Source: a virus | Taxonomy: Duplodnaviria; Heunggongvirae; Uroviricota; Caudoviricetes | Direction: 5' to 3' (one strand) | DNA: 5,747 nucleotides | IMG/VR virus record: IMGVR_UViG_2671180577_000020 | Part shown: piece by piece, positions 1 through 4,786 of the stretch | How positions within the stretch are numbered: position 1 is the first letter of the stretch | Layout of the letters: the number at the start of each line of letters is the position of its first letter | Made by a program: the position numbers and the translations under genes | The notes under the pieces: generated by a model | Databases searched by the model: none | What the model saw: the letters and a program-made list of their open reading frames with translations, nothing else | Told to the model about the DNA's origin: nothing

Positions 1-102
1 GTGAACTTTAAAAAGATGAGTGCTGAACTTATTCGGGCAATGGCATTTGCCATTCGTATTGTGGCCATTGCTGTTCTGGTCTGGGCAATCCGTTGGTGGT
101 GA
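1..102 (+). CDS. 3' end of an upstream gene (partial, start lies outside the window); possibly the endolysin by synteny, but the hydrophobic C-terminus is atypical
   Basis: Frame 1 is open from base 1 to TGA at 100-102, 2 nt before the Rz ATG at 104. Translation ends ...[25 protein letters not shown], a hydrophobic segment. It does not end like lambda R as I recall it. Product not identifiable from 33 codons. Confidence 0.4.
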
Positions 103-103
103 A

Positions 104-598
104 ATGAACCGCGTTCTGTGTGTGGTCATCATTGCTCTGCTGGTGGCCTGTGGTGCGCTTAGTCTGGGGCTGAATCATTACCGCGATAACGCCATCACTT
201 ACAAAGCGCAGCGCGATAAAAAAGCCAGTGAACTGAAGCTGGCGAACGCAACCATTACTGATATGCAGGTGCGCCAGCGCGATGTTGCTGCGCTCGATGC
301 AAAATACTCGAGGGAATTAGCCGATGCGAGAGCTGAAAATGAAACTCTGCGTGCTGATGTTGCCGCTGGTCGTAAGCGCCTGCGGATCAACGCCACCTGC
401 TCCGGTACCGTGCGTGAAGCCACCGGCACCTCCGGCGTGGATAATGCAACCGGCCCCCGACTGGCAGACACCGCTGAACGGGATTATTTCATCCTCAGAG
501 AACGGTTGATGACAATGCAGAAGCAGCTGGAAGGGGCGCAGGAATATATCCGCACTCAGTGCACTAAGCTGGCTTTTTATTATCCGGAGGATATATGA
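104..598 (+). CDS. Rz: Rz-type i-spanin (inner-membrane spanin subunit)
   Basis: Protein from the ATG at 104 ([39 protein letters not shown]...VAALDAKY...VAAGRKRL...[11 protein letters not shown]...[12 protein letters not shown]) is near-collinear with lambda Rz as I recall it: N-terminal TM helix, then a coiled-coil periplasmic domain. The track ORF starts at 20, but homology begins at the ATG at 104, which sits just after the upstream stop with GGTGGTGA as a weak SD. Confidence 0.9.
324..509 (+). CDS. Rz1: Rz1-type o-spanin (outer-membrane lipoprotein spanin subunit), embedded in the +1 frame of Rz
   Basis: 61 aa, [61 protein letters not shown]. Signal peptide plus lipobox (LVVSAC), proline-rich mature part, and the conserved [20 protein letters not shown] block of lambda Rz1. 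GAGGGA lies 8 nt upstream of the ATG. It lies entirely inside Rz in another frame, the classic arrangement. Confidence 0.85.
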
Positions 599-819
599 AG
601 AAATTACTGGTAACCGTAAAGCCTTTTCAGGGAACAATTCTGTTCCGTATTTTGCAGCGTGGTCGTGTTCTTGTTGAAGGTTCGTTCAGTGGTAAATGTA
701 CGCAATTACACTCCCGGACCTTTCAGGTGAATGCCACGAATGAAGAGCTAACCGTTGAGTGTACGATGAATGCCGCTAAATGCCGCATGGTATCCGCTGC
801 ATTACAGCCAGTGTGTTGA
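595..819 (+). CDS. hypothetical small protein (74 aa), translationally coupled to Rz; function unknown
   Basis: Its ATG at 595-597 overlaps the Rz stop at 596-598 (ATATGA), with GGAGGA 6-11 nt upstream. Same strand as the late operon. No signal peptide or TM; three Cys in the C-terminal third. No family recognised. Confidence 0.5.
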
Positions 820-1094
820 GCGACCTTATTATCCATGCGCGGTATTGTCGCCGTATTCCCGCATTAACAGAGACCGCAGCCCGACCGGGAGACTCCTCTT
901 CGCGAGTGTGCGGGGATAATCAAAAACGATACACACCGGGGTTTACCGCGTTAACGGAGCGCGGCGTTGCCCCTCATAGTCGCCTGTCCGGTGCGATGGT
1001 GGAAGAAGCCGGACGATGTGTTACCTCGCAAGCCCTGTTATGTGTCTGATTTGTGATTTAAGTCGGATAATTGTCGTTGCCATCAAGCAGAGGA

Positions 1095-1137
1095 TTGATG
1101 ACCGACAGGGTGGCATTGTTAGAATAAGACTTATTCT
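1095..1137 (+). promoter_or_regulatory. candidate sigma70 promoter with an overlapping palindromic operator-like site upstream of the TonB-CTD lipoprotein gene
   Basis: TTGATG (1095-1100) and TAGAAT (1120-1125) with a 19 nt spacer, longer than optimal. Overlapping the -10 is the dyad AGAATAAG-A-CTTATTCT (1121-1137), 8 bp arms. An AT-rich GATAAT-type tract at 1064-1082 (GATAATTGTCGTTGCCATC) is loosely Fur-box-like. Pattern-based only. Confidence 0.3.
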
Positions 1138-1151
1138 TATCTGTGCCGGGA

Positions 1152-1484
1152 ATGAAAATGAAAAGAAATCTTCCGTTAATTATTTTGTTGTCTTCTCTGG
1201 TTATGGGCTGTACGCAACATAAAACAGATATGCCCCGACAGTTGGTTAAGGCATTACCACAATATCCGGCCTATGCAGCGGCAAATTATATAAAGGGACG
1301 GGTTGATGTGAAGTTTGATATTGGTGCTGATGGTACTGTCACCCGAATTGAGTTTATCCGTTCAGAGCCGCACCATCTGTTTGATGAGCAGGTTGTAAAG
1401 GCGATGGCAAAATGGCGATTTGAGAAGGACAGGCCGCGTAAAGGCGTGAAGAAAACGTTTATCTTTAGTCCTTCTGCACCCTGA
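1152..1484 (+). CDS. lipoprotein with a TonB C-terminal domain (TonB-CTD-like, lipid-anchored); accessory (moron) gene
   Basis: MKMKRNLPLIILLSSLVMGC-TQHK is a signal peptide with lipobox (VMGC) and Thr at +2. The mature part (PQYPAYAAANYIKGRVDVKFDIGADGTVTRIEFIRSEPHHLFDEQVVKAMAKWRFEKDRP) carries the hallmark TonB C-terminal motif (P.YP..A...EG.V.V.F.V..DG.V..V.......FD..V..A...W.F). Start is ambiguous: GTG 1143, ATG 1152 or ATG 1158; 1152 chosen. Stop TGA at 1482-1484. Confidence 0.8.
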   Translation: MKMKRNLPLIILLSSLVMGCTQHKTDMPRQLVKALPQYPAYAAANYIKGRVDVKFDIGADGTVTRIEFIRSEPHHLFDEQVVKAMAKWRFEKDRPRKGVKKTFIFSPSAP

Positions 1485-1615
1485 TTATTTCATCAGAAAT
1501 TAATTATCACTCTGTTGTTATTCTGTACATTCCGGCTGGGTAAGTCTTGTTCCGCCGGATATGAAGATGAAATATTGTTGGAGGACAGTGGGTGCCTGCT
1601 CCTGTAACCGAACGT

Positions 1616-1816
1616 TCATTTCTCGTTATTTGTCATGCTGGCCGGACGCAGATGCGTTGCATCTGTTGCCAGCCTTCTCCTGCAGGCTTCAATAACCCAC
1701 GCTGAAAAGTTACCGGACCCTTTATGCTCAAGGGCGATGTTGATCTGTTCAATCATGTGATTGGGGAAACGGATATTGCGGGTTGTGGTTCTGCGGGTCC
1801 GGTTTTTCGATGACAT
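1616..1816 (-). CDS. small ribbon-helix-helix-like protein resembling the YlcI/YnfO (DUF3950) family of lambdoid prophages; antisense to the late operon
   Basis: Minus-strand ORF of 66 aa from the ATG at 1816-1814: MSSKNRTRRTTTRNIRFPNHMIEQINIALEHKGSGNFSAWVIEACRRRLATDATHLRPASMTNNEK. Strong SD (TAAAGGAAATAAAT-ATG). The track ORF extends 20 codons upstream, but the internal ATG has the RBS and matches the family N-terminus as I remember it. The family sits just upstream of the terminase region in E. coli cryptic prophages, as here. Family recall is from memory, not a search. Confidence 0.75.
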   Translation of the reverse strand: MSSKNRTRRTTTRNIRFPNHMIEQINIALEHKGSGNFSAWVIEACRRRLATDATHLRPASMTNNEK

Positions 1817-1857
1817 ATTTATTTCCTTTACTGATTGCCATATGACGGGGATTTTAC

Positions 1858-2312: not shown

Positions 2313-2440
2313 GCCAGTTAACATGTTAACTGGCTGTTCGGCCTTTTTTCTGTTTTTATCTTTATTATTCAGTTTGTTGTGCGAAAAAAATGTTAACTGG
2401 CTTTTTCAGCAAATGTTAACCAGGCAGCAGTTAACATTTG
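2313..2440. repeat. array of five TGTTAAC/GTTAACA motifs including a perfect 22-bp palindrome, separated by an AT-rich phased T-tract; candidate cosB-like terminase small-subunit binding sites
   Basis: Perfect palindrome GCCAGTTAACATGTTAACTGGC at 2313-2334. AAAAAAATGTTAACTGGC at 2384-2401. Inverted pair AAATGTTAAC (2411-2420) / GTTAACATTT (2430-2439) with a 9 bp spacer. AT-rich tract 2341-2390 (TTTTTTCTGTTTTTATCTTTATTATTC...) could be an IHF or intrinsic bend site. The layout resembles lambda cosB (R sites flanking I1). Confidence 0.45.
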
Positions 2441-4733: not shown

Positions 4734-4758
4734 CCCTGCTCACCCTGTAACCATCATG

Positions 4759-4786
4759 AACCGCTGCGGCGGTTTTTTTATTTTCA
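4759..4786 (+). terminator. candidate intrinsic terminator or RNA-stabilising hairpin between TerL and the protease gene
   Basis: AACCGC-TGCG-GCGGTT (6 bp GC-rich stem, 4 nt loop; 4759-4774) followed by TTTTTTATTTTC. It lies inside the late operon, so it would have to be read through, for example by Q antitermination. Confidence 0.45.

What the first reader, a model, noticed from the sequence alone, without database searches (positions are those of the whole stretch)
1064..1140. Operator-like palindrome overlapping a candidate promoter for the TonB-CTD gene, with an AT-rich Fur-box-like tract
Seen in sequence: a perfect 8 bp-arm dyad AGAATAAG-A-CTTATTCT (1121-1137) overlapping a TAGAAT -10 candidate, with TTGATG 19 bp upstream, and a GATAAT-rich tract at 1064-1082. 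Established knowledge: genes of the TonB system are commonly Fur-repressed in Enterobacteriaceae. Inference: the accessory gene may be transcribed on its own in the lysogen and could be iron-regulated. The Fur resemblance is only partial and may be chance in AT-rich DNA.
Basis: partly seen in the sequence, partly recalled or inferred. Interest (0 to 1): 0.45.

Follow-up and report, generated by a model that had tools for sequence, protein, structure and literature searches.

The report
Promoter dyad of a prophage TonB-like gene
The palindrome is real and sits on the likely promoter of a small accessory gene carried by E. coli prophages, but it occurs in only one of three versions of that gene and is not a convincing iron (Fur) switch, so it is a fairly ordinary regulatory feature.

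Summary
AGAATAAG-A-CTTATTCT lies at 1121-1137, overlapping TAGAAT (1120-1125), with TTGATG 19 nt upstream.

They lie in the 5' non-coding part of a ~600-bp AT-rich accessory ("moron") cassette (about 1008-1605). The cassette sits at a cargo hotspot between the lysis genes and ynfO/HNH/terminase. It carries a 108-aa lipoprotein that is a stand-alone TonB C-terminal domain (start ATG 1158).

Three diverged cassette alleles keep a -10-like hexamer at this position: TAGAAT, CAGAAT and TAAAAT. That supports a cassette promoter with an extended -10, TGtTAGAAT.

The full dyad exists only in allele A. Allele B, about equally common, lacks the right arm through a 13-nt gap. The single allele C contig keeps a 6/8 dyad at the same centre with different bases.

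The dyad itself is weakly Fur-like (8.8 bits, 13/19 to consensus), a score that 6% of comparable AT-rich prophage windows reach.

Chromosomal orthologues in Klebsiella and Raoultella carry a canonical Fur box (14.5-18.2 bits) at the equivalent place.

Verdict: a promoter is likely, an operator is possible, and Fur control is at most weak. No transcription start data could be obtained.

The parts
1008..1605 (+). Accessory ('moron') cassette of about 600 bp. The boundaries are ambiguous by 8 nt because of an imperfect flanking repeat, GCCGGACG / ACCGAACG.
   Evidence: Absent from otherwise collinear prophages: window 1-1015 joins directly to 1606 onward in L002 and L006. A different cargo sits at the same junction in L003. 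G+C is 44% against 52-54% in the flanks.
1049..1071 (+). Conserved upstream island 1, ATTTGTGATTTAAGTCGGATAAT.
   Evidence: This is the best-conserved upstream block in alleles A, B and C. Fur PWM is 2.0 bits. The CRP core matches 8/10 in all three alleles. The natural-DNA null is 4.3% per 142-nt window.
1095..1103 (+). Candidate -35 elements: TTGATG (1095-1100, 19-nt spacer) and ATGACC (1098-1103, 16-nt spacer).
   Evidence: TTGATGA is kept in allele C, where the tool calls ATGAGA-16-TAAAAT. It is not kept in allele B. Positions 1101 and 1102 are polymorphic within allele A.
1117..1125 (+). Extended -10 candidate TGtTAGAAT. The inferred transcription start is near 1132.
   Evidence: TG present. 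The hexamer at the aligned position is TAGAAT (A), CAGAAT (B) and TAAAAT (C). The block ATTGTyAGAATAAGAC was identical in every sequence variant listed among 126 loci retrieved with a CDS anchor. The start position is inferred, not measured.
1121..1137 (.). Perfect 8-1-8 dyad AGAATAAG-A-CTTATTCT, specific to allele A.
   Evidence: The right arm is missing in allele B (13-nt gap). Allele C has AAAATAGA-G-CCTGTTTT, 6/8 complementary at the same centre, with two pairs changed on both sides. As RNA the hairpin is only -2.8 kcal/mol, z = -0.5.
1123..1141 (-). Best match to the 19-bp Fur consensus. The minus strand reads GATAAG-AATAAG-T-CTTATT-T, 13/19.
   Evidence: PWM scores are 7.4 bits here and 8.8 bits at 1120-1138. 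The training sites score 10.5-22.8 bits.
1148..1152 (+). Shine-Dalgarno-like GGGAA, 5 nt before the start codon.
   Evidence: Sequence. The equivalent is AGGAA in allele B.
1158..1484 (+). 108-aa lipoprotein consisting of a stand-alone TonB C-terminal domain.
   Evidence: Pfam TonB_C 5.5e-15. It aligns to E. coli TonB C-terminal-domain structures at 3e-16. PGAP places the start here. The upstream ATG at 1152 is ATA in alleles B and C and in 13 allele-A loci. The signal peptide ends in a lipobox, LVMGC (by inspection).
1541..1572 (+). Degenerate copy of the segment 1124-1163 (right arm, ribosome-binding site, start codon) at the 3' end of the cassette.
   Evidence: (D1 at 84% identity, I3) and the local alignment.

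Best explanation
The dyad lies on the core of the cassette's own sigma-70 promoter.

Shown:
- Positions 1008-1605 are an AT-rich cassette inserted at a cargo hotspot of lambdoid E. coli prophages.
- The cassette encodes a stand-alone TonB C-terminal-domain lipoprotein (1158-1484).
- The left arm of the dyad plus 5 nt upstream (ATTGTyAGAATAAGAC) is a conserved island in an otherwise diverged leader.
- A -10-like hexamer is kept at that position in all three alleles.

Inferred:
- RNA polymerase starts near 1132 from the extended -10 TGtTAGAAT. This would give expression in the lysogen that does not depend on the late transcript, which also reads through the gene during lytic growth.
- The symmetric right arm is a lineage feature. 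It is perfect in allele A, 6/8 in allele C, and removed by a 13-nt gap in allele B. It is therefore not required for the gene.
- If the dyad has a function, it is to let a dimeric repressor occlude the -10 and start site in allele A.
- Fur is the only regulator with any sequence support, and that support is weak. Any iron control of the phage copy is at best a vestige of the strong Fur box carried by the chromosomal orthologues.
For: - Cassette presence/absence and composition.
- Promoter-like match with TG. The homologous site is called independently in allele C.
- Conserved islands in the three-allele alignment.
- ATTGTyAGAATAAGAC was identical in every variant listed among 126 CDS-anchored loci.
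- Allele frequencies were about 66 A to 55 B, and the right arm is absent in B.
- Fur PWM was trained on 13 K-12 Fur promoters (10.5-22.8 bits).
- Chromosomal orthologues score 14.5-18.2 bits.
- Natural-DNA null: 6.3% of windows reach 8.8 bits and 0.45% reach 14.5 bits.
Against: - No transcription start data exist for this site. The only usable start-site supplement was truncated.
- The promoter match is 9/12, and such matches are not enriched over shuffles.
- Allele B has a weak hexamer (CAGAAT) and no -35.
- No intrinsic terminator was found behind the gene.
- A perfect 8-1-8 dyad in a 142-nt leader is unlikely by chance (P = 0.005).
- Allele C keeps dyad symmetry at the same centre with two pairs changed on both sides (P about 0.01). 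This argues that the symmetry itself may be selected. That evidence rests on a single contig.
Confidence: 0.5

Rival explanations
1. The dyad is a working, if weak, Fur operator. Fe-Fur binds across the -10 and start site, so allele A is derepressed in low iron. On this reading it descends from the Fur box of the chromosomal gene family.
For: - There is a 13/19 match to GATAATGATAATCATTATC, in the classical hexamer-hexamer-1 nt-inverted hexamer layout, at 1123-1141.
- Two overlapping PWM hits lie 3 bp apart, 8.8 and 7.4 bits.
- P = 0.037 against dinucleotide shuffles of the leader. The cassette holds 5 positions at 7.4 bits or more, against 0.5 expected.
- Klebsiella and Raoultella orthologues carry a perfect 8-1-8 Fur box, TTGATAAT-T-ATTATCAA, close to the same position (centre -21 against -29 from the ATG).
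Against: - The score is below all 13 training sites and only matches the two weakest leave-one-out values.
- 6.3% of natural AT-rich prophage windows do as well.
- All three hexamers read NATAAG, with G where Fur sites have a near-invariant T (PWM -3.8 bits).
- When centred, the half-sites sit 1 bp further out than in the Fur 7-1-7 motif (by inspection).
- Alleles B and C have no Fur-like site at the promoter.
Confidence: 0.13
2. The dyad is the operator of another dimeric regulator, host or phage encoded, that represses the promoter in alleles A and C.
For: - The 17-bp 8-1-8 architecture sits exactly over the -10 and start site.
- It is locally improbable by chance.
- Symmetry is retained in allele C.
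Against: - No further copy with 3 or fewer mismatches exists in about 1.5 Mb of flanking prophage DNA.
- The only other exact copies in viral contigs lie in what reads as coding sequence (my translation) in an unrelated phage family.
- The cassette sits in prophages with different neighbouring genes, presumably of different immunity types, which argues against a phage-specific repressor.
- Half-site bases differ between A and C, which a sequence-specific protein would not tolerate easily.
- Allele B works without it.
Confidence: 0.15
3. There is no promoter here. The gene is expressed only on the late read-through transcript, and the dyad acts as an RNA stem-loop in the leader (stability, processing or translation).
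For: - The gene is co-oriented with the lysis and packaging genes.
- The A-to-C differences look like compensatory pair changes, plus one change that would still pair as G-U in RNA.
- The C-to-T variant at 1136 also stays wobble-compatible.
Against: - The hairpin is very weak (-2.8 kcal/mol, z = -0.5, 51 of 200 shuffles fold as well).
- Rfam finds nothing.
- Allele B has no hairpin.
- The hexamer stays -10-like in all alleles although the surrounding sequence drifts.
Confidence: 0.1
4. As an adjunct to the promoter model, the promoter is a class I CRP-activated promoter, and island 1 is the CRP site.
For: - The core TGTGA-N6-TCGGA (A and C) or TGTAA-N6-TCAGA (B) matches 8/10 at aligned positions in all three alleles.
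- It is centred at -72.5 from the inferred start, against the known class I position of -71.5 (established knowledge).
- Only 4.3% of natural windows hold an 8/10 core.
Against: - Only a consensus count was used, not a calibrated CRP model.
- The second half-site is poor.
- The start site is inferred, so the spacing argument is soft.
Confidence: 0.15

Closest known systems
Lambdoid-phage morons such as lambda bor and lom (Hendrix/Juhala concept; own knowledge)
   Same: A single small envelope-protein gene of deviant base composition, inserted between genes that are adjacent in related phages. The locus between Rz and the packaging genes is where lambda carries bor. A promoter of its own next to the gene is predicted.
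   Different: The gene points the same way as the late operon, whereas bor is opposite. No terminator was found. Expression in the lysogen is not shown. The cargo is a TonB C-terminal domain, not a Bor or Lom protein.
Fur boxes of E. coli iron-uptake promoters (tonB, exbB, fhuA, fepA and others)
   Same: An AT-rich dyad overlapping the -10 and start site, with hexamers in the direct-direct-inverted layout, and 13/19 identity to the consensus.
   Different: The PWM score is below every training site. The hexamers end in G instead of T. The half-site spacing is off by 1 bp on each side. The site is not conserved in the sister alleles.
Predicted Fur-controlled chromosomal orthologues in Klebsiella and Raoultella (P0029, P0034, P0035, P0036)
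   Same: The same protein family (45-47% identity, lipobox plus TonB_C). An 8-1-8 dyad lies immediately upstream of the gene.
   Different: There the dyad is a canonical Fur box (TTGATAAT-T-ATTATCAA, or GAGAAT variants, 14.5-18.2 bits). The genes sit at a fixed chromosomal locus, not in a prophage.
Extended -10 (TGn) sigma-70 promoters
   Same: TGtTAGAAT has A at -11 and T at -7. The -35 is weak or variable, as is typical for this class.
   Different: Allele C lacks the TG and allele B has C at -12. No start-site mapping exists.

Membership tests
Fur box (E. coli Fur operator) | PWM or consensus similarity within the range of validated sites | tested here: not met
The consensus match is 13/19. 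In natural AT-rich windows, P(8.8 bits or more) = 0.063.
Fur box (E. coli Fur operator) | Overlap with the promoter -10/-35 so that binding occludes RNA polymerase | tested here: met
   The candidate site at 1120-1141 covers the -10 at 1120-1125 and the inferred start near 1132.
Fur box (E. coli Fur operator) | Conservation at the homologous promoters | tested here: not met
   Alleles B and C score 1.4 bits or less at the promoter. Only the chromosomal orthologues have strong boxes.
Fur box (E. coli Fur operator) | Iron- and Fur-dependent expression, and Fur binding in vitro | not testable with these tools
   This needs a reporter in a fur mutant with and without chelator, plus a gel shift or footprint.
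Phage moron | Present or absent between otherwise collinear phage genomes | tested here: met
   Empty sites in L002 and L006, and other cargo in L003.
Phage moron | Base composition different from the neighbours | tested here: met
   44% G+C against 52-54%.
Phage moron | Own promoter | tested here: inconclusive
   A sequence match of 9/12 plus TG, and a -10-like hexamer conserved in three alleles. No start-site data.
Phage moron | Own terminator | tested here: not met
   No terminator-like site in 1485-1615. The fold of that region is not unusual on the + strand (z = -1.3).
Phage moron | Expression from the repressed prophage | not testable with these tools
   A literature search gave no usable data.
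Extended -10 sigma-70 promoter | TGn immediately upstream of a hexamer with A-11 and T-7 | tested here: met
   TGTTAGAAT at 1117-1125. Allele B has TGTCAGAAT. Allele C has TAAAAT without the TG.
TonB_C domain protein / bacterial lipoprotein | TonB C-terminal domain above the family threshold, and a signal peptide ending in a lipobox cysteine | tested here: met
   Pfam PF03544 at 56 bits against a cut-off of 24.6. TIGR01352 at 56.5 bits against 27.1. PDB TonB C-terminal domains at 3e-16. LVMGC, LAVGC and LLSAC are seen in the sequences. No lipoprotein predictor was run.
Class I CRP site | TGTGA-N6-TCACA core centred near -61.5, -71.5 or -82.5 | tested here: inconclusive
   The core is 8/10 in all alleles, centred at -72.5 from an inferred start. 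The null is 4.3%.

The most novel reading that the evidence does not exclude
The cassette encodes an outer-membrane-anchored decoy of the TonB C-terminal domain. The decoy would occupy the TonB boxes of outer-membrane transporters. That would protect the lysogen from TonB-dependent phages and colicins, or modulate iron uptake.

When the gene moved from an enterobacterial chromosome to phages, its strong Fur box would have been rewired into a different or vestigial dyad (alleles A and C), or deleted (allele B), uncoupling it from iron.

This rests on four things: the domain assignment, the lipobox with a non-Asp +2 residue, the Fur boxes of the orthologues, and the published observation that periplasmic TonB fragments inhibit FhuA and FecA transport (Howard et al. 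2001, J Bacteriol 183:5885; own knowledge). No function was tested here.
Probability: 0.25. Interest if true: 0.6.

Novelty: new member of a known kind. Interest (0 to 1): 0.3.

Why it matters
The cassette is common. It was found with at least 80% coverage in 414 of 5,426 complete E. coli genomes, including Stx1a phages and O157, O111 and O103 strains.

If it has its own promoter, a TonB-domain lipoprotein is made in lysogens of important pathogens. That protein could affect iron uptake and sensitivity to phages and colicins.

Two comparisons give ready-made natural experiments for testing what the dyad does. One is the strongly Fur-boxed chromosomal orthologues against the phage copies. The other is allele A (with dyad) against allele B (without).

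The regulatory element itself is an ordinary kind of feature.

Tried and rejected
- Rfam scan of the whole window found nothing relevant.
- RNA hairpin reading of the dyad was rejected as weak: -2.8 kcal/mol, z = -0.5.
- No intrinsic terminator was found behind the gene.
- Search for a regulon. The exact dyad elsewhere in viral contigs occurs only within apparent coding sequence (my reading of the frame) of an unrelated phage family. There is no extra copy with 3 or fewer mismatches in 1.5 Mb of flanking prophage DNA.
- From memory I compared the dyad with ArgR, Lrp, RcsB, PmrA and LexA consensus sites. Half-sites resemble the Lrp and RcsB half-sites, but the spacing is wrong by 4-7 bp, so these were not pursued.
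- Experimental start sites. The EDL933 Cappable-seq supplement is truncated and has no row for this gene. The literature held nothing on a phage TonB-like gene.
- HnrS, a multicopy prophage sRNA (PMC13502914), was considered for the conserved 820-1015 segment. The paper text gives no sequence. The strain distribution does not fit, because the segment also occurs in UPEC/ABU strains. I saw no terminator-ended unit of about 66 nt that fits.
- More copies of allele C were sought in viral and metagenome contigs without success.
- The genome-contig scan returned only two loci, one a 418-bp contig labelled Modestobacter whose label I suspect is contamination.
- Within-allele-A diversity has too little power to show constraint on the right arm. 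One of its 7 non-anchored positions varies, against about 30% in neighbouring leader segments.

Full report
**Context**

The window is the late region of a lambdoid E. coli prophage. It holds, in order:
- Rz spanin (104-598)
- a 74-aa ORF (595-819)
- a non-coding stretch
- a TonB_C gene
- ynfO/DUF3950 (1616-1819, minus strand)
- HNH endonuclease (1858-2223)
- small and large terminase subunits
- a large ORF that I take, by position only, to be the prohead protease
- the start of the major capsid gene

The stretch 820-1520 is 100% identical to a prophage in E. coli strain PRO_A-1443-6M-A_ESBL. The wider window region matches that locus at 96-99%. The TonB region is about 96% identical to phage JLK-2012, phage Lys8385Vzw and several Stx1a-converting phages.

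**The observation**

The dyad, the TAGAAT, the TTGATG and their spacing are exactly as described. The scan tool reports ATGACC-16-TAGAAT with a TG motif, 9/12 matches. Promoter-like hits are not enriched over shuffles: 3 found against 1.8 +/- 1.3.

A perfect 8-bp-arm dyad with a short spacer is unremarkable across the whole window (P = 0.28). It is unusual within the 142-nt leader (P = 0.005). The tract at 1064-1082 has one GATAAT and is 47% G+C, so 'GATAAT-rich' and 'AT-rich' are overstated.

**What the region is**

Prophages that lack the TonB gene join window position about 1015 directly to about 1606 (L002 and L006). Phage PPyecE_EH1910 has a different AT-rich cargo at the same junction (L003).

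So about 1008-1605 is a cassette at a cargo hotspot. It is flanked by an imperfect 8-nt repeat (GCCGGACG / ACCGAACG). Its G+C is 44%, against 52-54% in the flanks.

The cassette was found with at least 80% coverage in 414 of 5,426 complete E. coli genomes. The upstream 820-1015 segment occurs in 1,607 of them.

**The gene**

- The product is a TonB C-terminal domain (Pfam 5.5e-15).
- It aligns to solved E. coli TonB C-terminal domains at 3e-16.
- It sits behind a signal peptide that ends in a lipobox.
- The true start is ATG 1158. PGAP uses it. The ATG at 1152 is ATA in alleles B and C and in 13 allele-A loci.

**Comparative footprint**

Three alleles exist:
- Allele A is the window type.
- Allele B is about 70% identical in protein (L007, L010, L011).
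- Allele C is a single contig (L260, P0007).

Their leaders are largely diverged but share two islands.

| Island | Sequence and position | Behaviour across alleles |
|---|---|---|
| 1 | TTTGTGATTyAAGTCGGATAAT, 1050-1071 | Conserved in A, B and C |
| 2 | ATTGTyAGAATAAGAC, 1115-1130 | Hexamer reads TAGAAT (A), CAGAAT (B), TAAAAT (C) |

Island 2 contains the proposed -10. The promoter scan independently calls the homologous site in allele C (ATGAGA-16-TAAAAT). It does not call allele B. I retrieved 126 loci with an anchor inside the coding sequence. Every sequence variant listed among them carries island 2 unchanged; five loci could not be classified.

This is the main support for a promoter. 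It remains a prediction.

**The dyad across alleles**

- Allele A: about 66 loci, 65 of them with an intact dyad.
- Allele B: about 55 loci, which lack the right arm because 13 nt are missing.
- The distance from the hexamer to the ATG is 32 nt in A, 33 nt in C and 19 nt in B. That suggests a deletion in B.
- Allele C has AAAATAGA-G-CCTGTTTT at exactly the same centre. Six of 8 pairs are complementary. Two pairs are changed on both sides relative to A, and one is changed to T/G.
- Only 0.8% of natural AT-rich 17-mers reach 6/8.

So dyad symmetry may be selected in the A and C lineages. This rests on one contig. It is also partly an A-run facing a T-run. More copies of allele C could not be found.

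**Fur**

I built a 19-bp symmetric PWM from 13 Fur-controlled K-12 promoter regions.

| Site | Score (bits) |
|---|---|
| 13 training sites | 10.5-22.8 |
| Training sites, leave-one-out | 7.5-21.3 |
| Dyad, position 1120 | 8.8 |
| Dyad, position 1123 | 7.4 |
| Ribosome-binding site / start codon, position 1154 | 12.0 |
| Within the coding sequence, position 1451 | 10.0 |
| Just after the stop codon, position 1496 | 12.0 |
| Alleles B and C at the promoter | 1.4 or less |
| Klebsiella / Raoultella orthologues | 14.5-18.2 |

Significance of the dyad score:
- Against dinucleotide shuffles of the leader, P = 0.037.
- The cassette has 5 positions at 7.4 bits or more, against 0.5 expected.
- Against natural AT-rich prophage windows, 6.3% reach 8.8 bits and 0.45% reach 14.5 bits.

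The best consensus match is 13/19 at 1123-1141. On the minus strand it reads GATAAG-AATAAG-T-CTTATT-T. All three hexamers end in G, where Fur sites almost always have T.

The chromosomal orthologues lie at one syntenic locus in Klebsiella and Raoultella. They carry a canonical Fur box at about -35 to -7 from the annotated ATG. In Klebsiella it is a perfect 8-1-8 dyad, TTGATAAT-T-ATTATCAA. Two Salmonella-type homologues have none.

The gene family is therefore predicted to be Fur-controlled on some chromosomes. The phage copies are not convincingly so.

**Other readings tested**

- As RNA the dyad is a -2.8 kcal/mol hairpin with z = -0.5. Rfam finds nothing.
- No second copy of the dyad occurs in about 1.5 Mb of flanking prophage DNA.
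- Exact copies elsewhere in viral contigs lie within what reads as an open frame (my translation) in an unrelated phage family.
- Island 1 contains a CRP-like core (8/10 in all alleles). It is centred at -72.5 from the inferred start. The null is 4.3%. This is a lead only.

**Conclusion**

The most likely reading (about 0.5) is a cassette promoter whose core is the left arm of the dyad. The symmetric right arm is a lineage-specific and dispensable feature.

An operator role is possible: Fur about 0.13, another regulator about 0.15. An RNA role is unlikely (about 0.1).

No start-site or iron-response data could be obtained. The decisive tests are experimental and are listed under next steps.

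Noticed in passing
L012 2967-2992; L151, L145-L147 and L149-L150 at about -35 to -7 from the annotated ATG (gene start 2501): Chromosomal TonB_C-lipoprotein orthologues in Klebsiella and Raoultella carry a canonical Fur box immediately upstream of the start codon. It is a perfect TTGATAAT-T-ATTATCAA in Klebsiella, and it scores 14.5-18.2 bits. All lie at one syntenic locus, next to lacI and a Rick_17kDa-type lipoprotein gene.
   Followed up: yes
window 820-1015: This non-coding segment is conserved in 1,607 of 5,426 complete E. coli genomes, with up to 9 copies per genome, and occurs with or without the TonB cassette. It has no annotated feature, no Rfam hit and no unusual fold (z = +0.3 and +1.6). 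Its variable sites show no clear codon periodicity (19/17/26).
   Followed up: partly
window 1285-1312 (minus strand): A strong antisense promoter-like motif, TTCACA-16-TATAAT (11/12), lies inside the TonB_C coding sequence. The equivalent motif (TTAACC-16-TATAAT with TG, 10/12) is present in alleles B and C. It may simply follow from the conserved N-Y-I codons.
   Followed up: partly
window 1541-1572 compared with 1124-1163: The 3' end of the cassette holds a degenerate copy of the right arm, ribosome-binding site and start-codon segment (TAAGTCTTGTTC..GCCGGATATGAAGATGAAA). This suggests a past tandem duplication or recombination at this sequence.
   Followed up: partly
window 1052-1067: A CRP-like core, TGTGA-N6-TCGGA, is kept at 8/10 in all three alleles. 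It is centred about 72.5 nt upstream of the inferred start site.
   Followed up: partly
window 1154-1172 and 1496-1514: The two highest Fur-PWM scores in the whole window (12.0 bits each) lie over the ribosome-binding site and start codon, and just after the stop codon of the TonB_C gene. The first drops to 6.6 bits in strain CB9615. Both are absent in allele B.
   Followed up: partly
window 2313-2334, 2383-2437: A 22-bp perfect palindrome, GCCAGTTAACATGTTAACTGGC, and further repeats containing GTTAAC lie between HNH and the small terminase subunit. I guess this is the cos / terminase-binding region.
   Followed up: no
window 4758-4783: A terminator-like hairpin, GAACCGCTGCGGCGGTTT, followed by a T-run lies directly after the large terminase subunit gene and before the next large ORF, which I take to be the prohead protease.
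   Followed up: no
L003 1441-1900: A different AT-rich cargo occupies the same insertion hotspot in phage PPyecE_EH1910, starting right after GGAAGAAGCCGGATG.
   Followed up: no
L144 2369-2756 (K-12 Qin prophage, upstream of nohA): A strong Fur box (GATAATGATTATCATCTAC, 20.1 bits) lies between nohA and ynfO in Qin. It is a known site (PMC2189734). It is a precedent for Fur sites in this part of lambdoid prophages. The corresponding ynfO-to-terminase region of the window has no comparable site.
   Followed up: partly
window 1158-1484: PHROGs assigns this protein to phrog_1267, 'Rz-like spanin' (2.6e-42). The protein is clearly a TonB C-terminal domain, so the label looks like an annotation carried over from neighbouring genes.
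   Followed up: no
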